Below are positions 1 through 29,900 of a stretch of DNA of 64,000 nt, in pieces. Position 1 is the stretch's first letter, and every line of letters begins with the position of its first letter. The position numbers and the translations under genes were made by a program. The notes below the pieces were generated by a model. The model was not told the origin of the DNA. It ran no database searches and worked only from the letters and a program-made list of their open reading frames with translations. Origin of the DNA: Paramecium tetraurelia (Eukaryota); assembly GCA_000165425.1 (NCBI GenBank), contig CT868013.1, positions 124,001 to 188,000 on the forward strand, written 5' to 3'.

Positions 1-1740
1 AGAATATTTTGATATTACAATTAGCCTTATTCTACAAAACACAAATGAGGTTAATAAACCTCACTTAGAGTGTAAATGGAGAATGTATTCTAAGGCTAAA
101 TTATTTTTCTTTTTATAAAAGGTGAAAGAGAATTCTGTAGTTCCAAACTGAAGTTTTTAAAGAGAAAATCGCAATGTTTGAAAAATACATTATTGGCTTA
201 CTTTTTGAGATCCTGTTTCAATTCTTCAGATAATTCATTCAATAAGGTTTCTTCTTATTACAAATCGATTTCTGCTTCCTCCTTCCATCTAAAGGTCAAA
301 TATTCTCTGATTCTATACTACAAAGAAAAAGGGATATTTCTTTGATGCATATATCTGTTGATGACTCTAATCTTTCTGCTTCTTTCCATAAAATGTTAGT
401 TGATTTCTTTTATTATAGTGCCGATGGCATTAATACTGTACGAAAACCATAAGCAAGCACTTAAGATGAAGAATATTGCAACGATTTTTTCATTCCACGT
501 TTTTGGTATATTATCACCATATCCAATGGTTAGCATAGTGACTATAGCAAAGTAGAATGCTTCTAAATATTAGAGTTGCCATTATTAATGATCCAATTCT
601 TTAAAGATGATCCAGGAATTCCCCTAGTTTAATGAACTGTTGAAAAACCATATACAAGAAAATAAATGGAGAACATAAATCAAATAGATTATCAATTTAA
701 ATAAATTGATGAATGCTTTTTGCTTTTTGGTGAAGTATTGGGATTCTTCACTCTTTTATAAGGTTTAGTTAATTTGATAGTGTTGAGTCAGAGATATTAA
801 TAGCACCAAATATTTAAATTAATTTCCTTCATTTTTAGTAAAGTAGATTAATAAAAATATTAATGCGAAGTCTGAAATTGTCTATAGATTTAAATTCACT
901 TAGATAATTTTCCATCTATCATATACTGCCTATCCACTCAAGTAACAAATAGTATTTAATCTCAATATATTATCAACTATTAATATGATGATAATAGTAA
1001 CTGTGAGACCCAGCAATTTCTCAAATAAAATTTGAGGGTTATATGCAATTTCTAATGGAATTAATATTAATAAAAGCAACCTAAAAACAATAGTGAAATA
1101 GTCCCAAACGATCTTTTTGAGGGATTCAGGATGTACTTATGGGATTTTAGATAGAATCTCATATATAGACTTTCTGCTTTATTAATATTTCTCTCTAATC
1201 CAAATGAGGAAGGGATGTTCATGCGAAGATAGAGTGCTATCACGAAATAATTTGGTGACATTGCGTATTTGAAAATGCTAATGATTATTTAATTTAAGAA
1301 TCTAAATCATCACTTAACTAAATAATATTGATGATACCTATCACTTGAATTATCGTTAATTAATTTGATGTGATTTTCATTGACATTTGATAACTTAGTT
1401 CTATTGTTCCTAATACGTTAGATGAATCGTTTCAGATAAAAATATTTCATTAAATTAGTGCCTGTCTTTTTGCAAGTGTTCTTTTTAATATCCTCATCCT
1501 AGTTGATTAATGGCTTCGTAATGTGTAAACAATTACCTCACAATTTCTACGAGTGTCTATATTTGTTGTTGATTTTATTGTGAAATTATTGGTGCTTGGA
1601 TTTCTTGTCCTTATTCTTGAAACCAAATCCGCTTCCAAATATTCCTTTTCATATTCATTTTGTTGTTCTGCCTATAATTCTATCTGAAGATTCTCAGGTT
1701 ATGAACTTAAGGCTGAAAATATTATATCAGTGCCATTCAT
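1..1740 (-). CDS. CNBD-family (KCNH/HCN-like) 6TM K+ channel, 3' end beyond window
   Basis: ATG at 1740 (MNGTDIIFSALSSQPENLQIELQAEQQNEYEKEYLE). Pore region QYLEAFYFAIVTMLTIGYGDNIPKT at about 500-575. Paralogous to 7405-10624 and 26980-30057. Confidence 0.9.
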
Positions 1741-2361
1741 TTATAAAATTATATACTCATTTAAAATCTATTTTTTTCTTGTTGTTATCCATAGAATTGT
1801 TTTCTTATTCTCAAAATCCTCTAAACCTCTCCTCTTTAATCTTATCATCATATTCTTCCTCCCATTTATCACCAAATTAGAATTGTTTTCACAAATTGTG
1901 ACTTCTGTCTCCCACTTGATTTTTCCCTTCATGTCTCTTTTAAGATTTCAAAAAAAGATGGTTCCCAAAGGACAGACAATATTGTTGCCAAAATATTATA
2001 GATAACATGTGTTCCTCTCAATATAAATGGCATTTTTCTCCTTTCTTTGAACTTGAAGATCTAGTTCAACTTAGTAATTGAATTCTTTTCTCTTTATATA
2101 ATCTAGCTTATTTATATTGCCATCTCTATAATTATAGGTTTCAATGATCTTATCCAATTTTTACAACCTTTCTCCTCTATTGTAATTCTCTTTTTACCTT
2201 TTTAGTCTGATTTCTTTAACTTTTTGCTGAATACAATCTTACTTAATCTACTCTCATTTTATAAAAATTTAAATTTCCTTATATATGTGGAAATATAAAC
2301 ATCCACGTAGATGGATCCATTCTTTTAGTATGCTTATTAATAAATAATATATTATTGTAAT

Positions 2362-3617
2362 ATGTTAAAACAAACCAAGGATAAGTCACTTTCATAACTA
2401 ATAGTAGAGTTATAATAGAAATATTAAGATGAGAATGACCAATCGAATTTATTCTAGAAACTTTATCAATAATAAGTGGAATAAGAAAGTTCTACAGAAT
2501 CATCCAATATTGTTCCTCCTATTTTTTCGGGATCTACTGGTTCCTAATCCTCCAATTCATAGGAAGGTATAAAACTTCTTGTATAAAGGAGTGGAAAAAA
2601 AAATAAAGAAAGCAAAAAAAAGTCAAAATCCTAATAAAGGAACTCAGGATGAGAAACAACTTTAAACAGAGACAAAAGATAAAAAAACTCTATTAATGAT
2701 CCGTAATAGAATATCAGCATAAAATTCCAGAGATAGGAAGAAAGCCTACCTCTAAAATTTGGAAAGGGATTTTTAAAAATAGTCTCATTATCTCCAAGAA
2801 TTAACAGAATAGGTTAGTCAATTACAACAGTAATTGGAAGAAGCTCAAAAACTTAATTAAAATTTACAATCCTATTAGTAGAATCTACTTTGTGTAAATT
2901 GTGGTAGCAAGCAATTTGTCTTTGAAGAGGAAGCGCCTATTTCTGTTTCCAAGAATAGAACATTGGGCAATTTGGGATTTTCATTCATAGTTATACTCAC
3001 TATTTTTGCTTGTCTCTCTATTAACTTTGATACTACGCCTTAAAACTTAAATATTTCTCCATAAATATAGACAGAGAAACCGTTCATCAAAGAGATAAAT
3101 AATACAGACCAGCATTATGGAATCTTGAAGTAGGTTGAAAATAGTAGGATTAAAGGGGTAACCTAACTAATGGATTACAATTCAGAATACAATTACAAAT
3201 TGTATGATACTACTTATGAGGCCAACTTAAATACAAAAGTTAGTTTTGTCAACGAAATGATAAATTATAATAAAGAGAGGGCTAAGTAAAATAATGGTTA
3301 GGCATTAGCCCCTCTCAACTATCATAAACCATAAGTAGATTCATTTTATTGTCCAACCGTTTATAAGTATGACAACCAAACTTAAAAGTAATTTAATATA
3401 ATAAGTTAGTAAAATACAGGTCAAATACTAGGATGAATAATGGATTCATTTAGTTATTCCAAAGAATAATGTCAACATATTTTATCAAAATTAAGATAAA
3501 TCAATCATATTGAAAGAAACATATCCAGATTAAGATGTTGATATGAGAGAGAAGTATTAGGAAATTTGGTGTTAAGTTAAAAGTAAAGATGACTTTTATC
3601 TTGAAACATTGATTTGA
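2362..3617 (+). CDS. Membrane-anchored bZIP transcription factor (ATF6/CREB3/bZIP28-like architecture)
   Basis: Ciliate code, 2 short introns (2567-2588 and about 3388-3409). Basic region RNRISAQNSRDRKKAYL, leucine heptads, hydrophobic segment LGFSFIVILTIFACLSINF, TGA at 3615-3617. Confidence 0.85.
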
Positions 3618-4077
3618 TGAGGTAGACATCTACTATCAATTATTATAAATAATTTATAAAAATCAACACTTTTATTTTTTTAACTTCAAAAGCGATGTTA
3701 TCAAATTTAATTTATTTTCTTCCTTCTTTTATTTTTCAGTTTTATTTGAACAATGTTTATTTTTTAATTTTAAGAATCAAGTTCAATATGATTATCAATG
3801 CAGCTTTAACTTTCTATTTATTTTATTCTTTAAATTTCTTTAGACCATAAAAGGAGTTTGATAGCATAAGATCTCATCAAGTTAATCGCCCCTCAAATTT
3901 TATATTCGGAGCCTATTTTCAAGGTAGCCTAGTTTATTTGTATTATTAAATTATATTAAGAAAATAAGAGTAATATATTTTATAAAATCAAATAGTTAAT
4001 TTTTTAAGAATATTAATTAAATAAATAGTTGTTGTTTTGTTTTGGTTGAGAAATAGGGAAAATAAAAATATGGAATT

Positions 4078-7016
4078 TCACTTTTATGCAGGACTATAGA
4101 GGCTGGGTTTTATCTTTGATTTTCTAATAATACTCTGAATATGATCTGATCTGAATGATTTTTTTGGTTTTTTAAGTTTTTATAAAATCTTATCGAGATT
4201 GGAATTGGTAAAGTAATAAGTAGTTATGAAATACCTGTCTAATTCAAAATCAATTCTTTGATATTGGTTATCACCTTACTTAGAACTGACTACCTCATCC
4301 AATTAATTAATCATATTACTGCCAACAACCTCCAATTTTGATTAGGTTTTAGCTTGTAATTCTAAATCCATATTAGAATATGAATTTGAATTATTCTTGC
4401 GTAATTTTGGAACACTGGAATTTTAGACAGAAATGGGTTGATTTTAATAATTTTATTCTTGAGAAATTTAAGAGATATTAGTAAATCTATTGTTTGATAT
4501 TCTGGTTAATCTTTAAAAGGTTTTGTGTCTGTTATCTGCCTTTCTTTTGAATGAATTTTATGCTCTTAAGACTTTAGGTTCAGGTTCAGAGATCTCTTAA
4601 AATTTGACCTTCTTTTGATCTATACTTTATAAATGATTATATCTAGATGATTTTGGGGTTTTAGTTTTATTTAATTAGATTTCTGAATCATGATCACTTT
4701 CTGAGGAGTCACTACTAAATTATTCAAAGCCTGTAAGTCCTTTATGTAAAGATTTAGTAGATTTTTGACTCTTAATGGTTTTAATAATCCTTTCATTTTC
4801 ATCATCATCCATATTGAAACCTAATGTATCCAAATACTAATCAGTTAAATCATCTATTTAAATCATATTATCATTCACAATTAATGCCAGAGCATGTTCT
4901 CGTATGATGTTTCTTTAAAACAATTTTTTTGCAAAGGTTCTTTCATATTATTTTCTATTCATGTCTTCTGATATCATAAACTTTTTTCTTATTCTATCTA
5001 AATTGAAATGAACAAAAACTAAGGGACATCTAGATTAATTTATTCAATTTACTTTTTAAATTAATGTGTCCATTTACATATATAACAAACTTCACCATAG
5101 TTCTATTTTTCTTCTGTAAACAACATCTAATCTCTGAGCATGCAATAATTTTCTTCTTCCAGTGAATCTTCTCTAATGATTCTTAAGAAATCATCATAAC
5201 TAAAATCATTTAGATAATTTATTACTGTATAAAGGCAATTTGACAAAATTTAACTGATCTAATTGTATATTCATATCGAGCTTATGTAATGAATTCTTTC
5301 TCTCCAACAAATCTGCCTTTCTCTATTTTACTCAAAATGGTTTCTCTCAATTTTTAATCACCTATGTATTAAGATTGTATATATACAAATCAAGCTTAAC
5401 TCTCCGCTTTAGAGGAAAATTAATTTGTTAGCTTATTCATTTTAATACGCAATAATCTCCTCAGGTGGCACTTTCAATTCATGGACAAAAGAACATAATT
5501 TTTATACACTTTTTAGAGATAAAGTTTATTTGATGAGTCTTGACTTCTTTAACATTTCACAATACATGTCTATTGCAACTTATTCTTTTAATTTCTTATC
5601 TAGATTGAGCATCATTTTTTCACCAAATTCATTATATTCTTATTCCATTTTCAGAAAATATTCGAAATACTTCCTCACTTGTAACATTAATTATTTATTA
5701 ATTTTCTTTTTCTTTAAGAAGCTATTGATATGCATCATTTATTATTTGAATAATTCTTCCTTTTCAGTAAGCTATTTTAATATATTTCCAATGCTAGATA
5801 TAGTATATCCAAACAATCCACAAATAACCATCGCCATTATTATAACATAAATTCTTTCAAGATCTGTCTGAGGAACTATGTCCCCGTAACCAATTGTTAA
5901 GGTTGTGATTGTACTAAAATAAAAGGCATGAATATATTTAGTGGACCATTCTGCTTCAGTAATGTTTTTAGCAATCAACCAAGAATTTTATTTTGACTCT
6001 AATTCCATTTCTCCTATCAGATTCCACAAACAGGCACAAAAATGAGATACAAATAAAACTAAGAAGATGGATTTGAATAACTCTAAAATTGTTTACACAT
6101 TATTAGATGGATTTGTGACTTCTTCAATTGCTTCAATCATAGACTTAACTTTTGTTACTCTTAGCAATAATATGTATTCAGTATAAGGCACATTATAAGA
6201 GGATAAGATAAATGGTATAACAATCATCAAATCCCATAACAATGTCGTGTTGGCATAATGTTTAAGAATTTATTATTTATCTCTATGAATTTGTCCTTAA
6301 CTATAATACGCTGTGAAGAATGTCAAAATTATATCAATTACAAATGTCCAAGAAGGCAAAGTTTCTAAAAATATCCCAGACAATATATCTTCTCTTTCAA
6401 AGTCAAATCCCAATTTCATTGGAATGTAAAAGATATTGATGATAATTTGGGTTAAAACAAAAATATCCCAAAGCACTTTTATGATAGAGTCTGGATCAAG
6501 CACAGGTATTTGATTTATAAGCCACGTAAATGATTTCATCACTTATTCGACTTTATTTAATTTATGGAGTAATATATCTGAGTCGCTAGCTGCATCAGAG
6601 ATTAACGAGACAATTTAGTTTGTTAATGACTTAAACTTTACTTCAGTGGAGTAGGTTTTCATTTGCTTACTAAATTTGGTAATGTAGAACATGATTCTTA
6701 ATCCACCATGAACCCAGAGATTCACTTTTTATTTTGTTTCTACATGAAGCATGCTTCTGCTTTCTTCGTCTTGATCTGGATCTGGACTCAAGCAGTCAGC
6801 TTTAAAGGACTATTTTTCTGGCAATTATAATTCGATTTTTCTATTTGAACACAGGTTCGGCTCAAAGGATGCGTCTTCGCTGTTGTTATCACAGTGTGGT
6901 ATTGTAAAGTCTTAGCGAAATTTCAAAATTCCTTTGACTGTTTGACTCTTAATATAAAGAAACACTTACTTCCTCTGTTTTTATTGCCTTAAAACTGAAT
7001 CCAATAATTAGGACAT
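4078..7016 (-). CDS. CNBD-family 6TM K+ channel
   Basis: S1 IKVLWDIFVL, pore YIHAFYFSTITTLTIGYGDIVPQT, C-linker and CNBD (KGRFVGEKEFITQARYEYTIRS), stop TGA at 4078-4080. Start about 7016 (first intron boundary uncertain). Confidence 0.9.
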
Positions 7017-7404
7017 TAAACAAAAAATATAATATTTACAATTATTAAGAAGAAAGTTAAATAAAATTAAATACTAGAGGAAATAAGGAATCAACTCAAT
7101 AACTGATAATATTTTTGAATAGATTTTGCCCATTTTTAAATTATCTGAAATTCAGAACAATTTGAAAAATAATATTATATAGTTAAATGTCATAATTTAT
7201 TGAAAATGAATTTTCATACCTGAAATCAATAATATATTTTAAATTTGTTGTTTTCTGTTTAAATAACAACTTATTAACATTTCTATTCCATAACAGTTGA
7301 AATTTACAAATAATTATTTCATATCACATGTGGTTAGCAATCATTGTGATTTTCCAATACTAGATTTTTCTCGTAGTTTCTCTCAATTCAAGATTTATAA
7401 ATAA

Positions 7405-10400
7405 ATGTAAAAAATTGATCAAAATCACAAATACAACTTCGAATTGGATTTGGAACTCAAAGCTGTATAAAATGAGGATTTTGAGTAAGAATATTTAGAA
7501 CATTGCTTAAGAGATACTCGTAGATAATTATCAATAAGCAATAATCAATATGCTCATAATCGTACAAAAAGTGATAAAAGCAACGATGGTTACGATTTCA
7601 GAACGCCAAAATTAACAACTCACACAAATCTCAATAACGCTGTCACTTCTGAAGCTCAATAAAGTCACGTAATAACGCCTAAGTAGGTAAATCAAGAGAA
7701 ACCAAAAAGTACAGGGTCTAGCATTATGCAATTCTTTTTTATAAGACGTTTTTTGGAAAAACTTACCTTTCAAAGTAAAAGATTGTAGAATTTAAACCTC
7801 ACCCATTTAAATCTTATAGATGACAAAGCCTCAGATAAGTAATGATATTTTAATAATTCTGTAGAGCTAGCCTGTTAGCTTATAAGTAAACAAAAATTTA
7901 AAAAGGATTAACAATCAATTAGTTAAATAGAATTGTGTAAACGAAGATAGCAATAAAAGAGAGAAAGTGGGAAAGTTTTAAGAGAAATCTACAGGAAGGC
8001 AAACAAAAAGCCATAAGATAAATAACAAACATGGCCAATAAAATACCACTAGTACAACCAGAGGACGATTTCAAACTCTATTGGGACATTTTCGCTTCGT
8101 TATTCAGAGTGATCCTCGTTCTTCTGGTGCCATTAGAAATCTCATTCCATACCTAAATTCTATTTCAGAATTAAATAGGACTAACATTAACCATCCTATT
8201 TATCTTGCAATTAGATTTGTTCATTAGGATCAACACTCTCTGTTATGAAAATGGAAAGGCGATAACAGATCGTTGGGAGATCATAATTCGTTAAATTAGT
8301 AAATCTTGGTTTACTGATTTCTCATTAATAGTAATAATAGTGGTATTTTTATTCAATTCCAATGCCCAAGATGCCTATGATTTGTTTTTGCTCATTTTGT
8401 TGACTCAATACAAACATATCTTTGAGGCTCTGTCAAAAACAGATCAAATCTCCTATTTCACTAGACCTTAGAGAGGAATAATAGGATTAATCAAATTTAT
8501 AACCAGTTTATTTTATATCATGCACATATTTAGTTGTATTTGGTTCTGGTTCAGTAGTATTGATAAGTCTAATTCATGGATTTTAACTAAAGACTTAGAT
8601 GGGTAGACTTGGCAACTCCAATATTTGGAATCAATTTACTTTGCAATAGTGACAATGCTCACAATAGGTTACGGAGACAATGTGCCAAAAAATTCAATAG
8701 AGAAAATTGTTGCAATAATATTTATATTGGGTGCTTGTAAATTATTGAATTAATTATGTAAGGTTTATGGTTCTCTTACAGTATTAATTTTATTGGTTCA
8801 ATAATGAATGATATCACTCAGAATCAAGTGGAGAGGAGTTAAAAGATGAGAGTCATCAATAAATACATGACATAAAGGAAGATTCCATTTAGTCTGCAAC
8901 ATCAGTAATTTGTAATGATAATCAATTTTAGAGTCAAGGAATACCTAACGTACAGGTGGAAAGAGGATGATGAAGTTGATTTGCAGATGGAGCAACTCTT
9001 GTTAGAATAATTATCTGATGAATTAAAAGAGGAATTGGAGAAGTAGGCTTACAAAGTCTTTATCCAAAAATCAGAATTATTACAAAAACAATTTTCCTTG
9101 GAATTTCGAAATGCCTTATTTAAATCGATTAAGCGTAAGATTATTTAGCCATAACATACATTTTAAAGTGAAATCAATGGACTATAGCACCTTTGTTTCG
9201 TAGAGTAAGGTGTTTTGCTGTATCAACATAAGGATAGAAAACAGAGATCTAAAATGAATGCCTCTGTTCATTAAGGCTAATTCTTTTGTGTAAGAGAATT
9301 CCTTATGCAAACCCCAGAATATGAAATCTTCAAAGCTCAAAGTTATGTCAGTCTACTTGTCCTATCTAAATAAGATTTCTTAGAAACATTGCGAGATTTT
9401 CCAGATGATTTTCAAAAGTACTGTTAATTAAGAGATTCCTACTTATTGGAAAATGAAAATTGCTAAATTCAATTCAGCAGTTTCTGTCCTGCTTGTAATA
9501 ACTTTGATCATTCTTTGAAAAGTTGTTGCCAGATCTAAATGATTCCCAATAAAGAAGTCATCATTAAAAAACACTAAATGACTGGAGAATAAAAAAGAGA
9601 AGTCTACCAACGTAAAAACTTCGATAAACCAATTCAAACTAGGGCAGAATTAACATATGTTTAAGAATGTGCCCTTTACTTTTAAACGGAGAATCAAAAT
9701 CAAATCAACGAGTAGTCAAAACTCTAATTGGTGTATGATCAAGAAACTGAATCATATCAAGGCAACTCAGAAATACATAATGTCTATGATCCTATGCCTT
9801 CTCTCAATATCTTCCAGATCAACGAGATTTCAAGTCCTCTCAAACCTCCATAAAGCAAGACTTTTCCTAAAGTGGAATTTGATGAAGAAAAATAAAAGGA
9901 AAAAAGTGAAAATTAAAAAAGCACTTTGCTCATGGCTCAGAGTTAAAGAATGAATAGAAAGGGTTCTGTACCTTCAAAATTACTTTAAAGAAGAAATACA
10001 AAATCCCCCTCTATATTATTCTCAATGAATGAGATTGCTGAAGAAGCTAATGAAACTACTTTAATTCAGCATGAGAGTGATCGCCTCAAAAATGTGAATA
10101 ACTTCAACTATTATATGAAAGAGAACATAAAAATGTTATACAATAAACTACTAAAGTTCTCAGATGATAAATCTCCTCCAGTCCATTTAGCTATAAATTC
10201 ACTCCAATATATTTATTGGAAGTATAATGCAGTTACAGTTGAAGATTTTGAATCCATATTCAATTATGATCACTACTTTTCTCAATAAAACTCCATGAAC
10301 ACCATAGATATGGCTAATAAAAATCAGCATGCTTGGCAATAAGAAATCATAAGTAAATTTTCTAAATATCTTTATTTTCCTTATTAATTTATCAACAAAT

Positions 10401-10624
10401 TCTTGAAACTCAAAAGACTTTAGTAATAAACTGCTGCCATAAATGCGGCATCAAAGTTCAAAAAAATTCAGAAAAAAATCTGGTTAATCCAATTAAGAAA
10501 TAATTTGTCTTCAAAAAAATTGATTTCATCCAGTAAAAATATAAAATTAAACAAATCAAAGATGAATTCGATTGTTCCATATACTGGTGAGAGTTTGCAA
10601 TCTATTTAAATAAGCTAAAGTTGA
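7405..10624 (+). CDS. CNBD-family 6TM K+ channel
   Basis: ATG 7405, FKLYWDIF (S1), pore QYLESIYFAIVTMLTIGYGDNVPK at about 8620-8690, C-linker/CNBD-like domain, TGA 10622-10624, several ~25-nt introns. Confidence 0.9.
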
Positions 10625-10681
10625 TTAATTGATAAGATTTATAAGTTCTTAAATTTATTGTTATATATAAAATAAACACAT

Positions 10682-17176: not shown

Positions 17177-17250
17177 AACGTGGCAATTTATAATTTCTTA
17201 CTTTTATTTAATTATAATTCTAAAAGAACATCAATCGAATCAAAATTTTG

Positions 17251-18488: not shown

Positions 18489-21400
18489 TCAATCTCTCAT
18501 CGTAAATGCTGGAAGTTCCAAAGATAAGATTGCTGATTGATTAAAATGCAATGTCCAGATCTTCACTATAAACAGATTCAATTAAAAACCCTTTCTAACT
18601 AAGTCTACATAAGTCATATAATTCATCTAGACAATCAGGCTTCAAACTCAAGCCTATGCCAATAACAATCAATGAAATCTAAGGTCTCTTACTCGTAAAT
18701 TTCTTCATCCTCTCATATGTGATATTGCTCAAGTTATCCTCTCCATCGCATAACACAACTATCCATTGTTGATTGTCTTTCTTTACTGCCTTTTCGTGTA
18801 TTGAATAAGCATGTAATACAGCTGATAACATGGCAGTCATTCCCTCTGCCCTAATGTTCTTAGATCTCTCAATTGCACTTCTCAAATAGGCTGTATTCTC
18901 TGATTTAGAAGTTAAATCGAAAATAACCTCAATGTTTTGATTGAAACGCATATAACTGATTCTGTCTTAATCCTGAAGATAATTGTCAAAGATTTTGAGA
19001 ATGCCACTATTGATATATTGTAAGTAAAATACTTGATAGCCAATTCTTTCTTGATATTCTCCATGGAACCAGAATGATCAATTACAAATACAATGTCATT
19101 GTTTTTCTTGATCTCATTTAATTCTAACAGTTACTCTATCTTTGGTACTTTATAAAGTAGATTCTGTGATTAGAATATTTCCTTTAATTATTTGAGACAA
19201 TTAATTCTAATTTCTGGATCATAAAACTTACTAGTTTCTAAACATTCAGTAAAGATGAATGCTGCCTTTTTGATGCTATCATATCTCTTAATAAATAATC
19301 CCTTCTCATACAAAATCCTCTATTTCAAAATACCTGGAGGAATGGGGAAAGAATCATTTACCTAAGCATCAGATCTGTCATACGAATTCTCATATTTATC
19401 TGATAGTTACTCCGCATTCGAAATCTCAGCCAATGCAGAGTTGGAATCCTCTAAATTCAGTAAGACTTTGCATTATAAGATATGACTTATGATTTATCTG
19501 TATAATAAACCTTTATTATCCTTTTGATCCAGAGACAATGTAATATTCAAGCATTCCAAACTCTCCTTATACAATTATCTCTTCTCCTCGATACTCAAAC
19601 TCTAGTTGTTGTCAGCATATTCACTAAGTATATATTCTCAATTACATCAGTACATTAGCTAAAGAGAAGTTCCTACTTGAATAGATATCTTCTAATTGGG
19701 ATGTCTAGATCTCTCTCTCTATCATTGAAACCCTTTTACTACCAGATTGTGAGAATCTGGATTCACCTGAAATATCTATACTGATTCCCTTTTGTAATCG
19801 CTTTACTTCAAGTAATTTGATATCTCCTAAAAGCATCTATATATTATCTATCTATACTCTTAAATCGTCTTCACATAGTGCAATGGATTCTCTATAGCAT
19901 TGAATTGCTTCGATGTATCTTTGTTGTCTTCTGTGAATGTTACCAATATTGTTCAAGATCATTCCCATCCCTTTGTTGCTTTTCATCTTTTGGAACAGCG
20001 CTTTCCCTTGAGCATATTTAATCAATAAAGATGTATCATCTCCTTCGAAGTACCGGTCATTAGAGAAGTTCAATACTGTCACTAATTAATCCAAGGCATC
20101 ATATAGAAGATTGACTTCCAGAGAGCTTTATCTAAAGTTCGAGTAAATCTGGATTGCTAAGGTATCTTATGCAATCTATTGTTTTAAATTGTCATACATA
20201 CCAATTCAAGTTTATGAGTCAAATCATTAATGGGTTTGGAAACACTCTGGATAATCCTATATGATATGTACCAGGCTATGACGCACATGATTACTGCTAA
20301 GGGGATGGCAATTGTCATAATGTTCACAAATGTCTCGTTTTGTATTCCACTTGAAAACTATTCAAAAAATATTGATAAAAAGATTACAAAATCCAGAAAT
20401 TGTTTGTAGTAATCAATATCATATTGTATCAATATGCTACTCAATTAAAATAAAGGGTTTATAGAATCATTAATAAATGTTTCTTATTCATTTTACAATA
20501 TTTGTTTCATAGTTGACACATTAGACTTGACTGAACTTACTAATTAAATATATTGAGCTTCTTAATTGGGATAAACGATATCATAAAATAATTTTAGAAA
20601 TTAGTCTGAATTTTAGTTTGAGTTGTTAAATACAACATCTATCAAATTTGGAAATCCATAATTTTTTACGATAGATCCATTCACATATTAGGTGACAGTA
20701 TTAGTAGTAAAAATGTTTAAATTCTGATTACAAAAGAAAGAATAAATTTCACCCTGATACTCAATATTTTAATATAGATTATTAACAAACACCTACTGAC
20801 CTAATGCGTTAATTCCTAAACAAACGATTCCCATAAAATTGTTATCACTCCCTAAAAGAGACACACAACTTTCCAAATCAGTTTCAGAAGTCGGTTCAAT
20901 TAAGAAGGCTGTATGCATATTTGATTAGTTGAATGACTTTTTCATCTGCTGTAAGGGAGACTTAGAATAGAGGTCATCGTTTTCAACAAATGGATATTAA
21001 ACAAACATTTGATTTGCAAAATGATAGTAAATATAATTCAATTAGAAATTACTATTATAAAGAATTTGTAAAATCTGAAAGGTTTAAGCAATTTATTACA
21101 ATTACGAATATTGTTCTACACTTAAATCACCCAATTATGGATTGAAAGTCATTAAATTATTTACATCCACTAATCCCCATCCTATACAATATAAACATTG
21201 TTCTGTATTTTTATCATAATTAGGTATAAATTAAGATGACGTTGAGAGCGGAACTATTTAAGGTACTTAAAGGGAATAGAGATCTAGATATTGAGACTCC
21301 TATTATAGAGTCCAGAACGAATGAATAATCTATGTTCTAATTGTGGAAATAGTTTGAAATATAGATTATTAAGAGTTTCCCAATAATGTGGTTAATGCTA

Positions 21401-21646
21401 GGTGCATAAATTAGTTGTACATGTTTAATAAATATATTGTTGTTAGGCTAAACTATTTGCTCCTTGATTTGCCCAATATTCAGAAAGTAACAAAATAATC
21501 AAAATGGAAAAGAGGGTTGTTAATAGGATTCCAAACATCAAAGGTACTAATACTGTTATTAATATCTTATGAAGTTTATTTGATTTTTGTGATTTTCTTT
21601 TGAATTTGAATTTGTCCTCTTTCTTTGAATGAACTTTCCTTTTCAT
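18489..21646 (-). CDS. Membrane receptor-like protein: TM-Cache-like ectodomain-TM-HAMP-TPR-vWA
   Basis: TM1 ILITVLVPLMFGILLTTLFSILIILL; ectodomain ending SLLGSDNNFMGIVCLGIN; TM2 IMTIAIPLAVIMCVIAWYIS; HAMP SVSKPINDLTHKL...LEVNLLYDALDQL; TPR GMILNNIGNIHRRQQRYIEAIQCYRESI; vWA DIVFVIDHSGSME...T...WIVVLCDGEDN. Confidence 0.8.
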
Positions 21647-21696
21647 TACAATATTATTATTAAATTATTTATTCACACAAACATAAACAAGGATAA

Positions 21697-23715
21697 TCAA
21701 TCTTGTTAATCGATATTTGAAATAAAACTAATATCTTAATCAAGCATTTATTTCTTGCTCTTATTACCATCAATTTAAGAAACGTCAACACTGAATAAAT
21801 CAAAATGCTCGGATTGCTATTTCCTTTTGCAAGTCAATTGACCCAATAATTACTAGATTTCATTTTTGGTCTAAAACTGGTAGAATATATAATTACAATG
21901 GCCACAACTGATTATTTCGGGGGTTTGGTAAAATTGACCTGACTCTCATTTGAAAAATAAGAAAATGGATTACTGTAAGATCTTTTCTATCTTTTTATTT
22001 ATGACAAAGGATCTTCCATCTATTTAATTAATTGTTTCTTCTTTACGTTACTTATCTATAAATTTAAGTGATATCATACATCAAAATGTTAAAAGAATTC
22101 ACTGGACATTGACATAATGAAATTAACGCATTCTTCTCTAGTCATATCATAGTATGAGGTCTTCTTCTGCTGCATTTGATTTCTAACAAGAGGTTTAGAG
22201 TCAGCTCTTGCTGTTTAACAATAAGGAGCCTACTCAAAATTATCATCTGTATTAATCTCTAATTCTTTTAATTAGAGCTTCTTCATTTGAACTTGAGGAA
22301 GCACTTGATGAATTTGTTTTTGATTTGAATTGTTTAATTGGACTGAGATATTTTCTTTTGGTTCTGTATCATCCAATTTACCATCAAAATTCGATAATTA
22401 CTAGGAGTGCCTGGCGAAATAGGATGGTTAAGTGTTGACTCGTTCATTATTGATTCTAGGACTAAATATGCCAACAGCTATATCTTATTCTTGATTCAGC
22501 TATATAGAATTGAATTATTTTCTAGTTTTGAGTTATTCCATATAATTTTAATTTTGTTTCTTGTAAAATTGCAATTCTGCCATCAATTACTCATTCTTTT
22601 AATCTTTCAATTGATTTGAACGTATTAATAATTCATTGTTGTCTTGAATCTAATCATATTTCTTGACTAATTCATTATGCAATTTGCTAATATATATATA
22701 ATTATTTTTTTCCTTTTCAAATAACTCTTTGAATCCTTTAACCATCATTTCCATCTTATGCAACTTCTCTTGATAAATCATCCTTTCATTTTTGCTCAGA
22801 TACTTCAATTGCTATGGTTCTGGAGAAAACCCATAGCCTAAACTTGCTGGTTCCATACAAGTTCTTAATGCATTTGTTCTAGTCTACCTCTTTAATTTTG
22901 TAACTCCTTGTTCAATTCAAGATTGTTATCTGTTTTATCGAGATATTCATTATACACAAAATCTAGAATATGAAGACTTGATACCCTTCATATTTTAATA
23001 GGTCACCTAACTTCTCAGTACAATTCTCATTTTGAATATTTCCCTTTTCAGGTGATAATTGACTTCTCTCAAGGCATTGTTGCTTTCTGAAACACTCTGA
23101 GCTTCCGCTGTAATTTTCTGCAAGACTCCTCTGACACTTTCCAACTCTTCATGCAATTTCAGATTTTATTCTGAAGGTGTCACCACCTCTATAAGTTTAA
23201 CTAATTGACCTTCCTTCTCCTAAATTGGCTTCATTCGTTCTAACTCCTATATGGCATATTCCTTATCGTGAATGTTACGCTTCAATTCAATTAGCTTATA
23301 TTCTAAATCACTAATCAAATCTTTGTAATAATTTGTTTGCTCCTCAGCAATCTACTCCTATAACAGTATTTTGGTTTTGCAACTGACTACTCACTTTTTA
23401 TTGTTTGGTTAAGGCCTCCATTAATTTCTTATTCTCCTCATTTAAGAGCTTTAGCCAATTCGGGATTTGAAGCTTTACTCACTTGAAAGCGTGCTTGCCG
23501 TCCTTTGTTTGCTTTGAAATCATTAATTTAAAAGTGTTACCTTAGGCCTATTGTTGTCCAAAGCCAAAGTCATCGCCTGCTTATTTAATTTCAATGAATT
23601 CTCTAAATCGGTGATGTAATCTTATAGCAAAGCTTATTCTCCTGAGAGAGAGGTAGTGTATTTTCGATTACTGACGATTCGTCACAAACTCGTTTACCTC
23701 TGTGCCCAATATCAT
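21697..23715 (-). CDS. Coiled-coil hypothetical protein
   Basis: Long Q/E/K/L-rich frame (ALLQDYITDLENSLKLNKQAM...) with several short introns; TGA 21697-21699. Start approximate. Confidence 0.6.
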
Positions 23716-23876
23716 TAATAAATAATATTGAGAAATTATTGTTATAAATTATAAATTGAATGAAAATACTTAAGTAAATGATCACTCATTTTTATGTATA
23801 AATTATAATTCAATTCTGAAGATTATGAATAATGAGAAAATTTATAAATATTTTTAACGAATAGAATATTAAAATT

Positions 23877-24642
23877 ATGCCTCAAGAGTCGATCGAAATA
23901 TAAATGTTAAAACAACAAGTTTAGTTATTACAATAAGAACTTCAATAAATTCATTAATATGGCAATATACGCATTCTTTGGAATAATATATTCTCAAAGT
24001 TGGAAACCATCACATTCACATCTCAACAACCTCTCAAAATCTATTAGCAGTTGATGTTTCGACAAAGCATATCTCAAGATCAAATCAAACCAGAGCATCT
24101 CTCACAAGATGCAGAATGTCAGACTCAAGATGATTAAATTAAATTCAATGTACAAGACACAATCAAATCCTGCATTTCATCAATCAAAATCGATCTGAAA
24201 ACACAATAGGAAAAGTACCTGCAGGATAATTTAAATTAGATTGAGTAATGCTTGGAAAATATTCTCAACTATTCAAAACACAAGTAAACTAAACCAAACC
24301 AAAAAATAAGATCATCCATTAATTCATCTCTTTTCGATACCAACTACCATCATTAACTTGTCTACCAAAGAAAACTACATCGCAAAACCCATAAGTAACT
24401 TAGAATATGAACTTAAGGTATGAATACAATATCATTCTTAGGATAGTTAAATTAATGATCTAAAAAAACAGAATTAAGCTCTAAAATAAGATATCCAAAA
24501 ACTATAACTGATTTAAAATTAATTAAGCACTTAATTGGAGGAGAAGGAAGCAAAATTGAAACTTCTAAATTTTATGGTCTTGAACCATCAACAATAAAAA
24601 TCAGAATTTGGATTTCCATAATATGATAATTTTAGATTATGA
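23877..24642 (+). CDS. Coiled-coil hypothetical protein
   Basis: MPQESIEIQMLKQQVQLLQQELQQIHQY... with short introns, TGA 24640-24642. Confidence 0.55.
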
Positions 24643-24669
24643 ATAAAATTCAACTAAATACATACAGCA

Positions 24670-26519
24670 TCATTCCTCAATTAAATTCAGTAACTATCAA
24701 ATTATTAATTATTTCTAATTCTTTTTAATAATCCACATATGTCTTCATCTTTCATTGTAATTTCTAACCATTACTGTTTATATTTAATATTATTAATATA
24801 TCCAAATAATCCTTTAAATAGAGCTTTGATTAATCCGCCTTAGCTTAAATTGTGAGAATTCATATTTAAATTAATTAAACTCTTATTTAAACAAGACTGT
24901 GTTTTCCTTAAATTTCAGTTGGTTAATGAAATCATAATCACTAATTGCTACACAGTAAAGTTAGCATTTTGGACTTAGATTTCAGTGATTAAGACTCAAA
25001 TATAGGTAAGATTATAAGCTGTTTTGTAACATAATTAAAATTATTAGAATATGGGAATAAAAGCAGCGAATTAAAAAAGTTCTGTGTTTTATTATTTATT
25101 ATAAAATCATTGCTACTTTTGCTAGAATTGAGGAACGATTTCATCTTCTGATGATGATAGAATTTGATTTTTGCACATAGTTTCTGGGCCTGTGGAACTA
25201 TTGCTACTGGTTGATGAACAAGATTGAGTTTATTTATATTGCAAGTATAGTTTAAATGTAACGTTTTGGAACATCTTGTCAAAGTTGTCAAATAAAACTT
25301 TTAGGAACCTCACAGATTGACCTACCTGTTCTAAAGATGAAATGTCATTGGTTTGAGCTCTCATAAAGCAAGGGGCAAATACAATTGCCAAGTTGTTCAT
25401 ATTCATGTGATTAAACTCAGAATAATTGCCAACACATAACAGAAAGCTCACCATAACTGTCAACAACACTCTATTTAGACTAGGCAACTTGCCAAATACT
25501 TCTTCAAGTAGGACAATCTCAGTTTGAGGAGTTATTTCTAATAATTTTTTAATAGCAACTTACATACTATCTAATTACAAATAAATTTTAAAGTGTTTTA
25601 TGGAATTAACGGATCTGGGAGTGAAGTGAAGAATTTCTTGATCATACTACAAACAATTCGGACATCCTCAACAACATTCAAACATTCATAATTCTCATTA
25701 TTCAACAATGTGTAGAGTTGTTCCTCCTCATTTATTGATCCTTATTTTCTGAATATGTCTGGTTTTAGAAATCTATCTGCATTCGTTACAAAGTAGGAGA
25801 GCAGACAATCAAGAATTACAGGGATTCCAAATTGATTTAATTTTTAGTTGGTCAAATTTGAACCAAAAGAACCTCCTGTTTATTTAACTAATTAGGCTGG
25901 CTCCATTTAATCAATGGACGAAGTTTGATTCGGGACCAGATTCATCCAACTGGCTTGAAAATTGGGTATTTCTAACAGATCTTCTACTCTTACAATAAGT
26001 TTAAGCATACTCATAAATATATTTGGTTTTCTTCTGCCACAGACTCCATCTCTTTGAAGTTTGAAGCCACAGGCGAGTTCTGATTAACAAACTTGCCTGA
26101 AATAAGTAAAGGTATTTGAGGTGAGTGTAGTATTTGCTGGGAAGTTATTTCAAAATCTTGCGAAATCTTGACAACTCATTGAGTCCATTATGTTTTGCCA
26201 CTATATATACAATGGTATAAGTACTAATTATATTGCCATCAAATACTTTTGATCTATTTTATTATCTAAACTATTTATAGTGTGATAAGTGATCCTAGTA
26301 TTGTCAAACTGATCTTAAATATTCCCATTAAATAGAAAGCATACATTTTATTATTCAACACCTACACTCCAGATCTAAAATACCTGAAATTTATAAAAAG
26401 TTGCTTTTTTCGATATCAGACAAATTTGTGTATTTAGCTATTTGTAATTTGTTTTGGTAATCCTAATCCAATTATGGCTAATATTTTTATAGTGCCTATT
26501 TAACATCTTTCGTATTCAT
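24670..26519 (-). CDS. RhoGAP with N-terminal BCH/CRAL-TRIO-like domain (ARHGAP1-like architecture)
   Basis: RhoGAP motifs FGIPVILDCLL...DIFRK and NHMNMNNLAIVFAPCFMR. Upstream LKQLPSKYYTHLKYLYLF resembles a BCH domain. Confidence 0.8.
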
Positions 26520-26979
26520 TATTATATATATATATTTCTTGATTTACTTAATATATTTATAAATGATTCAATATTCATTTCCCCAACCTCATAGCAATCT
26601 TAAATCAACAACCCAACTTCTTCTATTAACTCACTATTTCAAAATTAATTTCTTCTCACACTACCCTACAAACCAAATATCAAACCATATGAATTTATGA
26701 TATCATAGCTCTCTAATCTAAGTTTGCTCTGAGAATCCTTCTCTCCTAACTGCCGAATCTTCATAAAGTAGTCACAAAATCCACATTCATTACTAAACAA
26801 ATCCAAATTATAATTTTTATTATTACGTCATTTGGGTCATCCTCATTCCTCTTCCTAATTGATTTGTACATTTATGTAGAGAATAATGTTACTAAATTGC
26901 TATTGCTCATATTGTATCAATTGGTTCAACTCTTAGAATTATTATAAAAAAACAATAAAGTTGATGATGTATAACAATA

Positions 26980-29900
26980 TCATATTTACTTTCTTCTATT
27001 TACTTAAATTTCCGGCGAAACCTTATTTCTCTTTAGTTGACTTTTTGTCACTCGTAGAAGCATCATTTTGTGCCTAGCTCTTTGGATGGTTTCGAATTTG
27101 TTTATTATGGAGACATATGCCTTGTTTCTCTTGTATTTCAAAAATTTCAGTATAAATTAAAAGGGGTAAAACATGTACATCTAAAATCTATTTAAAATTT
27201 ATTATTGCCAGTTTGATTTATTTTTATTAATTTATTCTATTATTCTAGTAATATTGTGTGTAGGGAAATAGTATTCATAGTTATAGATTTAATCTAGGTT
27301 TGTCTCAGATTAATTGAATAATTGAATATAGAGATATGTGATTTCCTTTACTGGTTTGATGAGTTCAGGATCATCAATGCATTTTAGCATCTGATTATAA
27401 ACTATTTTAATGCTTTCAGCATGCATCTATTCAAAATTCTTAATCCTATTTCTAAAGGCATCGACCTCATTATTGAATATGGCTTCATAAGTGGATTATT
27501 CTATGGAGGGTTCATTTAAACTAGATAACAGAGAAGGACTCTTGGTATTCTACCTCAAGAATTTGTGATCATAAATAGATCCTACTTTGTAGATTCGTTT
27601 GGGATTGTACTTATAACTGGGTTTATGTTGCTTATCTATTCTTGCATCAGACTGCACCTCTTGGCCAATTTACTTCACTGCCCTTTGGTGACCAGAAGTA
27701 ATAAGATATTCCTCTGAGACGTGGAATACTTTGACAGAAGGCAGCTATTCTTCATTGCCACCTAGAAAGATTACATTGGCTTCAGGGTCTTATTCTACTA
27801 CATGCTGACATTTTTATTAATTTTAAATGAGTTGAGGATTATCTAAAGCGAAGATTCTAGCACATTCTTAAACAAATAACATCTCTGCTCTTGTCATGAT
27901 TGGTTTCTCAATTACTCTTCGTTTACGGTGCATTCTTTCTTAATTCTAATTATAGATGTGTCTCTTGAGCACTAATTCCTTATTGGGAATCAATTGCACT
28001 TAAGAACATTGATCCAATTGATGATCAGTTTTATTGCAGACAGGACAAAATTACCCTTCCTTAATTAGATCCTAATCTAAATTGAGAATCAATTGATCTC
28101 TCAATTAACAGTACTTTTAGAAATCTTCAGGGAAATCTTTTAATGTTTCCAGGAAGTCTGATTTTGATAGCATCAATAAACTCACATATCCAGCTGCTTT
28201 GAATAGTTCTCTATCTTGACTCTACAATAAAAAGTCTTTGACACATATGAATCTTCCATGACTGATATGAGAATTGATCTTTGATCTCTGTTTCCCATCT
28301 CTATGTTAATATAGCAATATTCCTTATTCAATATAACATAGATGATATTCCCCATCAAACTCAATTGAAAATGTGTTTTAAGGTTGTATAATCTTTCTTT
28401 TAATTGATTTAAAGAGAGCATTGCGAAACTCAACACTGAAATACTTCTGTAAAAACTCACATTTCAAAATGAATATCTTGTATGCCTATTTATCTAATTC
28501 TTCCTTCAATTCATCTGACAGCTATCCCAGTAATTCCTATTCCATTTCCAAATCTACTTCGTCGTCTTCCTTCCATCGATATGTCAAGTACTCCTTGATT
28601 CTATTGTTTTATTAATGATTTCAATTACTGATATTATAAGGCAAATGGAATCTCGCGCTCCCTCATATACTTATTTATCACTCTCATCTTTTTATTTCTC
28701 TCTACTTAGTTCTAGGTGATATCGTCAATTATCCCACCTATGAAGTTTACACTATAAGAGAACCACAAACAGGCACATAGAATAAAAATTATTGTAACTA
28801 TTTTCTCTATCTAATTTTAGGGCACATTATCTCCGTATCCAATTGTCAACATTGTGACTATTGCAAAATAAAATGCTTCCAGATACTGTGATGACCATCT
28901 CAGATCTCCTAATCTCTTAGTAATAATCCACGAATCCTCTCTATCTATGCTGCTAGACCAAAACCATATGCAACTGAATAAATGAGCTATATAAATTAAA
29001 GACACCAAAAACTTTATTAAACCAATTCTACCCCTCTAAGGTCGAGTAAGATATGAGATCTAATCTACTTTCAAAAATGATTCATAGACATACTTAAGTT
29101 AACTCAGAAGAAGAATCAAAATTAAATCATAATCTCCTTCAGGTAAATAGATATTGATTAACAAAATAAAGGTTAGACATTGATCAATTAAAATAGATCT
29201 ACTTGTTTACACCTTGATTATTTCCCAACGATCTGCTATGGCTTTACCCGTTTTATATGTGATTGTATTTATTTTAACAAAATAATCCAACTATAATACG
29301 ATAAATATCAGTGTGGAAAATATCCTGTCTTCGGATGCCAAAATTCTTGAATTAAACGAAATTTCTAAAGGTACCAAAAATACCAGTATTCCTCTAATGA
29401 AGGTGACGAAGAAATCCCAGTACATCTTTAACATGCTTTCTGGTTAAATTAATGGTATGCAAGAGATAACCCATAACAAAAATTTGAAAATCTGTCTTTG
29501 CGTATACTCAAAAGATTCCTTGAATTCCTCAAGTGTTCGTCGCTTAATAATTTATTAAGTAAATATTCTTTGAACATTTATGAATGATAGTTCCTTGCGC
29601 TAAAACTATTTGGCATATGCTATCACATTTAAACTACAATTAGAGTAAAGCAATACTTTTCGGATGCTTTATCACTTATTAAATTTAAAATACTGCAATT
29701 TAAAGTCTCTAGTTTTCGTCTTTTTTATCCAACTTTTTCTAAAAACCTTCGAATAAAAAAAAAGGTCATCAGGCTTGATCCAGTATTCTTAGATGTTTTA
29801 TTGAATTGAGTTTGCATCTCTGATAATGAAATTGCATCGTTCTAGAGAAAATCTTACTCGGGTTTGGGAGTATATGTGATATCTGGAGTTTTATCTATTC

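What the first reader, a model, noticed from the sequence alone, without database searches (positions are those of the whole stretch)
745..29120. Three paralogous K+ channels with an arginine-free S4 voltage sensor
Seen: the helix before the S4-S5 linker reads KYLVLLISLTQHYQINQTLQK (gene at 1-1740, about 745-820), YDLFLLILLTQYKHIFEALSK (about 8376-8440) and YDLILILLLSQLKYVYESFLK (about 29070-29135). There are no Arg and at most one Lys in the core, while the TIGYGD K+ filter is intact. The fourth channel (4078-7016) keeps LLLRVTKVK. Known: KCNH/HCN S4 has R/K at every third residue. Inference: a subfamily of voltage-insensitive K+ channels gated by something else.
Basis: partly seen in the sequence, partly recalled or inferred. 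Interest (0 to 1): 0.7.

Follow-up and report, generated by a model that had tools for sequence, protein, structure and literature searches.

The report
Paramecium K+ channels lacking S4 gating charges
Three of the four potassium-channel genes in this Paramecium window belong to a genus-wide subfamily whose "voltage sensor" has lost its charged arginines and instead carries a fixed arginine in another helix, so these channels are probably not opened by voltage in the usual way.

Summary
The window is Paramecium tetraurelia macronuclear DNA (ciliate code). It holds four intact 6TM, TIGYGD, CNBD-superfamily K+ channel genes: A 1848..<1(-), D 7016..4078(-), B 7405..10624(+), C 30057..26980(-). 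Alignments to SKOR, LliK, HCN1 and CNGA3 and an AlphaFold model all place the quoted helices at S4.

In A, B and C the arginine register reads L, L, Q, Y/H/Q, E/Q. S4 has no Arg, and its one or two Lys lie out of register.

This is a real, conserved, transcribed subfamily of 36 proteins in six Paramecium species, at least 13 of them in P. tetraurelia. Voltage insensitivity remains an inference.

- Charge-poor S4 is common among Paramecium relatives, and gene D has only two in-register charges.
- The subfamily also lost the S2 aromatic cap (Phe to Leu) and the outer S2 Asp. It keeps the inner Asp pair.
- It carries an invariant mid-S1 Arg, found only in the 50-leaf clade that contains it (one gain).

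The CNBD fold is kept, but the cNMP-contact residues are not, so the gating input is unknown. I rate this a new variant of a known kind.

The parts
1..1848 (-). Gene A (5' part; the 3' end runs off the window). Arginine-free-S4 K+ channel. Introns at 1514-1536 and 1320-1339.
   Evidence: The spliced translation equals the first 600 residues of public protein P0033 (1031 aa). Pfam Ion_trans 39.7 bits and Ion_trans_2 52.1 bits.
753..815 (-). Gene A S4: KYLVLLISLTQHYQINQTLQK. No Arg, and no Lys between the two terminal Lys.
1080..1082 (-). Gene A S1 arginine (AGG), equivalent to R80 of C.
513..530 (-). Gene A selectivity filter TIGYGD.
4078..7016 (-). Gene D, a more distant CNBD-type K+ channel (954 aa, my own gene model). 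Introns at 5362-5386, 5200-5225 and 5030-5052.
   Evidence: Pfam Ion_trans 81.2 bits. PDB hits 7w5z_C, LliK, CNGA3, GORK, SKOR.
6120..6179 (-). Gene D S4: EYILLLRVTKVKSMIEAIEE. Three basic residues, two in register. S1 position 80 is Ile and S2 position 113 is Phe.
7405..10624 (+). Gene B, arginine-free-S4 K+ channel (1046 aa). Introns at 7839-7864, 8737-8762 and 8905-8931.
   Evidence: The spliced translation is identical to public protein P0197 (named).
8376..8438 (+). Gene B S4: YDLFLLILLTQYKHIFEALSK.
8106..8108 (+). Gene B S1 arginine (AGA).
8661..8678 (+). Gene B selectivity filter TIGYGD.
26980..30057 (-). Gene C, arginine-free-S4 K+ channel (1008 aa). Introns at 29634-29656 and 28601-28628.
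   Evidence: The spliced translation is identical to public protein P0005.
29063..29131 (-). Gene C S4. The model's fourth TM helix is DLILILLLSQLKYVYESFLKVD at 29128-29063.
29393..29395 (-). Gene C S1 arginine R80 (AGA), invariant in the subfamily.
29285..29287 (-). Gene C S2 Asp D116, the retained inner acidic residue. L113, three residues before it, replaces the S2 aromatic residue.
29183..29185 (-). Gene C S3 Asp D150, retained.
28829..28846 (-). Gene C selectivity filter TIGYGD.
28087..28599 (-). Gene C C-linker and cyclic-nucleotide-binding homology domain. The fold is kept. The FGE and R-T-A contact residues are not conserved.
28006..28047 (-). Gene C CCHC knuckle CPVCNKTDHQLDQC (C-x2-C-x4-H-x4-C), invariant in the family.

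Best explanation
A, B and C are functional pore-forming subunits of a Paramecium-specific subfamily of CNBD-superfamily (EAG/HCN/CNG/plant-Shaker-like) K+ channels. Their S1-S4 module has been converted from a voltage sensor into a voltage-sensor-like scaffold.

Shown:
- The positions that hold gating arginines in SKOR, LliK, HCN1 and CNGA3 hold Leu, Leu, Gln (invariant), Tyr/His/Gln and Glu/Asp/Gln.
- The remaining S4 charges K180-E184-K188 are spaced i, i+4 and can neutralise each other.
- The S2 aromatic residue of the charge-transfer centre is Leu, and the outer S2 Asp is gone.
- The inner Asp pair (S2 D116, S3 D150) is kept.
- An invariant Arg sits in mid-S1 (R80), and an R/K follows D116 at position 120.

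Inferred:
- With no mobile charge to cross the membrane field, S4 cannot act as a classical gating-charge carrier.
- The fixed S1 Arg (with R120) satisfies the buried Asp pair and locks the bundle.
- Opening is therefore essentially voltage-independent.
- Opening is driven through the strongly conserved S6, C-linker, CNBHD and CCHC-knuckle C-terminus by an input that is not a canonically bound cyclic nucleotide. Ca2+/calmodulin, lipid, phosphorylation or a partner protein are candidates, and none was tested.
For: S4 placement:
- AF2 model of C: helices at 67-93, 104-121, 135-162, 169-190 and 197-229, a pore helix at 246-263 and S6 at 274-325, pLDDT 79.9.
- Foldseek top hits are GORK, CNGA3, SKOR, hERG, HCN1 and EAG1, E 6e-11 to 1e-9.
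- The register is the same against SKOR and LliK and against HCN1 and CNGA3.

Subfamily:
- 35 full-length hits in P. tetraurelia, primaurelia, pentaurelia, octaurelia, sonneborni and bursaria, plus one contig labelled Halteria.
- At least 13 P. tetraurelia genes.
- 0 Arg in 37 of 38 S4 segments, and at most 2 in-register R/K in all 38. The 38 segments are 36 proteins, because A and C are each counted twice.

Constraint:
- Mean pairwise identity is 0.48 for S4, against 0.45 for S2 and 0.36 for S3.
- Q178 is found in 33/33, K188 in 30/33 and D/E190 in 33/33.

Other sensor hallmarks:
- Position 113 is Phe in 28/40 relatives with five or more in-register charges, and Leu in 35/38 subfamily segments with no Phe. 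It aligns to HCN1 F186.
- Position 110 is Asp in 23/40 of those relatives and never in the subfamily.
- D116 is found in 38/38 and D150 in 36/38.

S1 Arg:
- 38/38 subfamily segments, plus 15 sister-clade segments (14 R, 1 K), and 0 of the other 145 relatives.
- These sequences form one clade of 50 leaves, support 0.995.

Pore and C-linker are the most conserved parts: 0.84, 0.75 and 0.71.

CNBHD:
- The CNBD fold is confirmed.
- Pfam cNMP_binding stays below its cut-off in every member tested: 25.8, 25.7, 16.9, 15.8 and 15.0 bits against 27.5, and no hit for C.
- FGE is replaced by F-[FIL]-C-V. The PBC Arg column is R in 3 and K in 3 of 31, and the Thr column is mostly acidic.

Transcription: strand-consistent reads over A, D and B in three oligo-dT RNA-seq runs, about 0.1-3x per bin.
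Against: - No functional data exist. Voltage independence rests on sequence alone.
- CNG channels show that S4 charge content and voltage sensitivity are not tightly linked (recalled, not from a call), so the reverse case cannot be excluded.
- Pore-based voltage dependence, as in K2P or Kir channels (recalled), needs no S4 charges.
- The co-occurrence of the S1 Arg with S4 charge loss rests on a single evolutionary event. In addition, 47 of 62 other charge-poor relatives lack the S1 Arg.
- Gene C keeps an Arg at one candidate PBC position.
- Pfam Ion_trans for full-length C is 22.1 bits, below the 25-bit cut-off.
- RNA-seq depth is very low.
Confidence: 0.6

Rival explanations
1. The channels keep a weak or unconventional voltage dependence. 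It could be carried by the residual S4 charges (K180, E184, K188, D169, D190; net charge zero or negative, so possibly of inverted polarity). It could also arise from ion-flux gating at the filter or from voltage-dependent block, rather than from an arginine ladder.
For: S4 still has five charged residues that are conserved: K180 25/33, E184 25/33 (plus 4 D), K188 30/33 and D/E190 33/33. S4 and the S4-S5 linker are as conserved as, or more conserved than, S2 and S3. Paramecium has K+ conductances activated by depolarisation and by hyperpolarisation whose genes are largely unassigned (passages of PMC2234077; PMC8208649).
Against: None of the basic residues lies in the arginine register defined by four solved relatives. 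K180-E184-K188 are spaced i, i+4 and should pair within the helix. The S2 aromatic cap and the outer S2 Asp are lost.
Confidence: 0.2
2. They are modulatory or 'silent' subunits. They co-assemble with charged-S4 paralogues (such as gene D types) and tune them, as AtKC1 does with AKT1 or CNGB with CNGA. They would not form channels on their own.
For: Paramecium has about 298 K+ channel genes, mostly of this type (passages of PMC2234077), so heteromers are plausible. A and B flank D within 9 kb. Solved relatives include such heteromers, AKT1-AtKC1 and CNGA/CNGB (titles).
Against: The filter and pore helix are canonical and are the best-conserved part (0.84). D shares only 28-31% core identity with A, B and C. 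Gene adjacency alone is not evidence. No assembly test was run.
Confidence: 0.15
3. The charge-free S4 reflects relaxed selection in redundant gene copies that are on their way to becoming pseudogenes.
For: The gene family is huge and whole-genome duplications are repeated. The CNBD signature is degenerate.
Against: The reading frames are intact and match the public models. Orthologues in other aurelia species are 84-89% identical, with an identical or nearly identical S4. The state is shared with P. bursaria. Q178 and R80 are invariant. Sense-strand transcripts are present for A and B.
Confidence: 0.03

Closest known systems
Animal CNG channels (CNGA1-3, TAX-4)
   Same: 6TM plus C-linker plus CNBD architecture, with structural matches. 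They are gated from the C-terminal domain and are regarded as essentially voltage-independent (recalled).
   Different: CNGA3 keeps R, R, K, R at the register positions where the subfamily has L, L, Q, Y. CNG channels bind cGMP through FGE and R-T-A, and are non-selective (TIGE filter noted in PMC7576140). The Paramecium proteins have TIGYGD and lack those contact residues.
KCNH (EAG/ERG/ELK) channels
   Same: Same superfamily and fold. They have a CNB homology domain that does not bind cyclic nucleotides (recalled).
   Different: KCNH channels are voltage-gated with a charged S4. No PAS/eag domain was detected here. An intrinsic-ligand motif was not examined.
HCN1 and the plant SKOR/GORK/AKT1/KAT1 channels
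   Same: They are among the best sequence and structure matches. They share the S2-S3 beta-hairpin and the inner S2/S3 Asp pair.
   Different: They have a full S4 R/K ladder, the S2 Phe (HCN1 F186) and the outer S2 Asp. Their S1 position 80 is hydrophobic: Met in HCN1 and Ala in SKOR.
Tetrahymena 'cyclic nucleotide-binding domain protein', PDB 7w5z chain C
   Same: It is the closest solved-structure sequence (E 3.7e-16 for the C core, 1.5e-66 for the family profile). It has the same TM core, C-linker, CNBD and CCHC knuckle, and its S4 is also charge-poor.
   Different: It is 1471 aa long and deposited in a mitochondrial complex IV dimer entry. Its S4 has several Lys. Which part of the chain is modelled was not checked.
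Voltage-sensor-like domains of SK/IK, TRP and MloK1 channels
   Same: The concept is the same: an S1-S4 bundle that no longer senses voltage, with gating by a cytoplasmic ligand domain (recalled, not from a call).
   Different: These are different families. I know of no report for them of an invariant mid-S1 Arg combined with a retained inner Asp pair; this was not searched systematically.

Membership tests
CNBD-superfamily 6TM K+ channel (EAG/HCN/CNG/plant Shaker-like) | Six TM helices with a pore helix between S5 and S6 | tested here: met
   AF2 model. Foldseek matches to GORK, CNGA3, SKOR, hERG, HCN1 and EAG1. Pfam Ion_trans and Ion_trans_2.
CNBD-superfamily 6TM K+ channel (EAG/HCN/CNG/plant Shaker-like) | K+ selectivity filter T-x-G-Y-G-D | tested here: met
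   TIGYGD in all four genes. T263, G265, Y266, G267 and D268 are invariant.
CNBD-superfamily 6TM K+ channel (EAG/HCN/CNG/plant Shaker-like) | C-linker and CNBD fold directly after S6 | tested here: met
   AF2 model of C exon 3, pLDDT 79.6. Foldseek matches to CNG and HCN C-linker plus CNBD.
Cyclic-nucleotide-gated subclass (functional cNMP site) | Phosphate-binding cassette residues: Gly-Glu of FGE and Arg-Thr/Ser-Ala | tested here: not met
   FGE is replaced by F-[FIL]-C-V. The Arg column is R 3, K 3 of 31, and the Thr column is mostly D/E. Pfam cNMP_binding is below its cut-off in all members tested.
Functional voltage-sensor domain | Four-helix S1-S4 bundle | tested here: met
Functional voltage-sensor domain | S4 with R/K at every third position (definition: PMC13095418 abstract) | tested here: not met
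   The register positions are L172, L175, Q178, Y181 and E184. In-register R/K count is 1 in 35 and 2 in 3 of 38 segments.
Functional voltage-sensor domain | Conserved S2 aromatic residue in the hydrophobic constriction (charge-transfer centre) | tested here: not met
   Position 113 aligns to HCN1 F186. It is Leu in 35/38 and never Phe.
Functional voltage-sensor domain | Acidic counter-charges in S2 and S3 | tested here: inconclusive
   The inner pair is kept: D116 38/38 and D150 36/38. The outer S2 Asp (position 110) is lost.
Functional voltage-sensor domain | Gating-charge movement and voltage-dependent opening | not testable with these tools
   Needs electrophysiology.
KCNH-type CNBHD | An intrinsic ligand that occupies the nucleotide pocket | not tested
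   Model coordinates cannot be inspected here.

The most novel reading that the evidence does not exclude
In one Paramecium clade (50 of 188 tree leaves) the electrostatics of the voltage sensor were re-wired rather than merely lost. The positive charge moved from the mobile S4 to a fixed mid-S1 arginine. This Arg would face the retained S2/S3 aspartates and an S4 glutamate in the arginine register. The module could then act as a locked scaffold, as an inverted-polarity sensor built around an acidic S4, or as a cation- or lipid-binding pocket comparable to the Ca2+ site in TRPM voltage-sensor-like domains (recalled). That would give some of Paramecium's roughly 300 K+ channels a new gating modality.
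Probability: 0.25. Interest if true: 0.65.

Novelty: new variant of a known kind. Interest (0 to 1): 0.4.

Why it matters
Paramecium has about three times as many K+ channel genes as humans. Most of them are CNBD-type channels whose structure-function relationships are unexamined (passages of PMC2234077 and PMC7721907).

A conserved, expressed subfamily with the following combination is a natural experiment on how voltage sensors are dismantled or repurposed: no S4 gating charges, no S2 aromatic cap, a retained buried Asp pair and an invariant S1 Arg.

The subfamily also narrows the search for the molecular identity of Paramecium's voltage-independent (resting, Ca2+-dependent or mechanosensory) K+ conductances. 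It gives clear mutagenesis targets, namely R80, Q178, E184 and L113.

The general idea that an S1-S4 domain can be voltage-insensitive is already well established, so the advance is incremental unless the S1-Arg network proves to have a new function.

Tried and rejected
- Whole genome: none is held for this window.
- Pseudogene worry for gene A: I first read two in-frame TGA codons upstream of 1340. This was a frame error. The public model with introns at 1514-1536 and 1320-1339 is open and matches the conserved N-terminal motif.
- Primary literature: Haynes et al. 2003 (DOI and PMC178346), Ling et al. 2001 (PMC1461881) and Jegla et al. 2018 (PMC6354262) are not held. Jegla & Salkoff 1995 was not looked up. 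These papers may already describe charge-poor S4 segments in PAK channels. I recall something of that kind but could not verify it.
- Full-text searches: 'PAK paradox', Paramecium/CNBD/voltage sensor/potassium channel and Paramecium/S4 segment/eag. I opened five of the listed papers at the matched passages only and saw the rest as listings; none of these describes an arginine-free S4 or an S1 arginine in ciliate channels.
- IQ/calmodulin idea: IQ-like strings near the C-termini of B and C gave no Pfam IQ hit at E<=1. No calmodulin sequence was available to test, so this stays speculation.
- Zinc-knuckle Pfam hit: none at E<=1, although the C-x2-C-x4-H-x4-C pattern is exact.
- The look-up of sequencing runs: no RNA holder listed.
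- Read laying: no intron joints reached the reporting threshold with 58-nt reads, so splicing is supported only by identity to the public models.
- Earlier notes of this scan: none.
- Role of 7w5z_C in complex IV: the two papers I searched say nothing about a channel-like subunit, and a four-term search found no paper.
- Complex prediction was not used. Neither homotetramer nor heteromer assembly was tested.
- R80-D116-D150 distances could not be measured, because model coordinates are not exposed to scripts.

Full report
**What the window is.** GC content is 25-34%. Long frames open only when TAA and TAG are read as Gln. Introns are 20-28 nt long, and all but one have GTA...TAG ends (B's second ends in AAG). 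Gene C translates to a protein identical to a public Paramecium tetraurelia macronuclear protein (P0005, 1008 aa). My spliced models of B and C are letter-for-letter identical to public proteins P0197 and P0005. Gene A matches the first 600 residues of P0033. Gene D (954 aa) is my own model.

The four genes are A 1848..<1(-), D 7016..4078(-), B 7405..10624(+) and C 30057..26980(-). They are the only TIGYGD genes in the 64 kb window.

**The observation.** All three quoted helices are present at the stated coordinates. The helix is S4 by several lines of evidence that are not fully independent:
- It is the fourth TM helix (residues 169-190 of P0001) in an AlphaFold2 model of C with mean pLDDT 79.9.
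- The best structural matches of that model are GORK, CNGA3, SKOR, hERG, HCN1 and EAG1.
- Pairwise HMMER alignments to SKOR and LliK and family-profile alignments to HCN1 and CNGA3 all put the S4 R/K ladder of the solved channel on the same columns: L172, L175, Q178, Y181 and E184 of C.

The Lys that is present (K180) lies out of register.

**How far the feature extends.** A search for longer proteins found 35 full-length relatives with E<=1e-10. They come from P. tetraurelia, primaurelia, pentaurelia, octaurelia, sonneborni and bursaria, plus one 2.9-kb contig labelled Halteria. Cluster look-ups add further P. tetraurelia members, giving at least 13 genes in that species.

Across 38 S4 segments, 37 have no Arg and none has more than two in-register basic residues. 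The 38 segments represent 36 proteins, because A and C are each counted twice.

S4 is not decaying. Its mean pairwise identity (0.48) matches S2 (0.45) and exceeds S3 (0.36). Q178 is invariant (33/33), K188 is found in 30/33 and D/E190 in 33/33.

An exhaustive HMMER search found 7505 relatives at E<=0.001, with a sharp score drop after the subfamily, from 262 to 171 bits. I took the 160 S4 segments of the other listed relatives (the best 150 plus gene D) and counted in-register R/K. The count is 0-2 in 62, 3-4 in 58 and 5-7 in 40. Many of the fully charged segments come from proteins with more than one matched stretch.

Nine of the ten nearest charge-poor clusters I looked up are Paramecium proteins, and the tenth is unnamed.

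**What else changed in the sensor.** I used the same alignment columns for the rest of the sensor.
- S2 position 113 aligns to HCN1 F186. It is Phe in 28/40 fully charged relatives. It is Leu in 35/38 subfamily segments and never Phe.
- The outer S2 Asp (position 110) is present in 23/40 fully charged relatives and in none of the subfamily.
- The inner Asp pair is kept: D116 in 38/38 and D150 in 36/38.
- Mid-S1 position 80 is Arg in 38/38 subfamily segments and R/K in 15 sister-clade segments. It is never R/K in the other 145 relatives, where Ile is the commonest residue.
- An R/K also follows D116 at position 120 in 36/38.

On a FastTree of 188 segments, the R/K80 sequences form exactly one clade of 50 leaves (support 0.995). 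The subfamily (36 leaves, support 1.0) is nested inside it. For that tree I dropped rows with less than 80% coverage and the two duplicate window rows, and I rooted at the midpoint. The result means one gain followed by strict conservation. It is one event, so it is not statistical proof that the gain is coupled to S4 charge loss.

R80 lies on the conserved stripe of S1 formed by positions 69, 72/73, 76, 79/80, 83, 86 and 90. Its contacts could not be measured.

**The cytoplasmic side.** The region after S6 folds as C-linker plus CNBD (AF2 pLDDT 79.6; Foldseek matches to CNG and HCN C-termini). Pfam cNMP_binding is sub-threshold in every member tested. The FGE motif reads F-[FIL]-C-V. The PBC Arg column holds R in 3 and K in 3 of 31 members, and the Thr column is mostly acidic.

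A C-x2-C-x4-H-x4-C knuckle follows the domain. It is invariant across the family, its sister clades, gene D (with a three-residue spacer before His) and the Tetrahymena protein in PDB 7w5z. The pore, S6 and the first C-linker helix are the most conserved parts, at 0.84, 0.75 and 0.71.

**Expression.** Three oligo-dT RNA-seq runs give low but strand-consistent coverage. Reads with the first mate on + cover A and D (minus-strand genes), and reads with the first mate on - cover B (plus-strand gene). The only exception is one bin of one run over A (1072-1428, X18), which also has reads with the first mate on -. The highly expressed neighbouring plus-strand gene at 2231-3436 shows the same orientation rule.

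**Mechanism.**
- Shown: the S4 position, the absence of an arginine ladder, the loss of the S2 aromatic residue and outer Asp, the retention of the inner Asp pair, the invariant S1 Arg, the canonical filter, the CNBD fold without cNMP-contact residues, the conservation and the transcription.
- Inferred: S1-S4 is a voltage-sensor-like scaffold whose buried acidic pair is satisfied by fixed charges (R80, R120). The channels would then be essentially voltage-independent and controlled through the C-terminal assembly by an unknown input.

The rival explanations are residual or unconventional voltage dependence, a modulatory-subunit role, and decay. The conservation data contradict decay.

**Comparison and novelty.** By fold and filter these proteins are members of the CNBD superfamily. 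They fail the defining tests for a functional cNMP site and for a functional voltage sensor.

Voltage-insensitive S1-S4 domains are well known, for example in CNG, SK, TRP and MloK1 channels (recalled). The accessible literature says that the structure-function relationships of ciliate CNBD channels are unexamined (PMC7721907 passages). The passages I read in the five papers opened, and the listings, mention neither an arginine-free S4 nor an S1 Arg. The original PAK papers could not be read.

I rate the finding a new variant of a known kind, of moderate interest.

Noticed in passing
window 28006-28047(-) in gene C; same motif in A, B, D and relatives: An exact C-x2-C-x4-H-x4-C zinc-knuckle pattern directly after the CNBHD. 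It is invariant in 40/40 aligned Paramecium channels and is also present in the Tetrahymena protein 7w5z_C. D has a three-residue spacer before His. There is no Pfam hit and the function is unknown.
   Followed up: partly
PDB 7w5z chain C: The closest solved-structure sequence to these channels is a 1471-aa Tetrahymena 'cyclic nucleotide-binding domain protein'. It is deposited in the mitochondrial complex IV dimer entry. Some ciliate K+-channel-like proteins may therefore be mitochondrial. The two papers I searched do not mention it.
   Followed up: partly
window 2231-3436(+): A strongly expressed gene (depth up to about 84x, against about 1x for the channels) that encodes a bZIP-like basic-region/leucine-zipper stretch followed by a hydrophobic segment (FSFIVILTIFACLSINF). 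It may be a membrane-tethered bZIP. A 22-nt intron at 3388 is seen in a contig.
   Followed up: no
P0008: A protein labelled Halteria grandinella on a 2.9-kb contig is 73% identical to gene C. That is closer than the P. bursaria members (40-50%). It suggests Paramecium-derived DNA in that assembly rather than a spirotrich orthologue.
   Followed up: no
window about 300-330(-) in gene A, compared with 8905-8931 in B and 28601-28628 in C: B and C have a 27-28-nt intron at the conserved LQ(Y/H)Q|(I/V)KEY site. Gene A reads straight through (LQYRIREY), which suggests intron loss in A.
   Followed up: no
Two subfamily members (GSPATT00025413001, B-like, and GSPATT00025423001) lie ten gene numbers apart on another 342-kb scaffold. 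This mirrors B and C in this window, so the local arrangement probably predates a whole-genome duplication.
   Followed up: no
N- and C-terminal regions of A, B and C (consensus): Conserved short motifs outside known domains: QNEDFEQQYL and TGxSxMxxFxIxRFxEK...NLIxDKASD in the N-terminus, and YMxYPFxxIxKFLK near the C-terminus. There are no Pfam matches.
   Followed up: no
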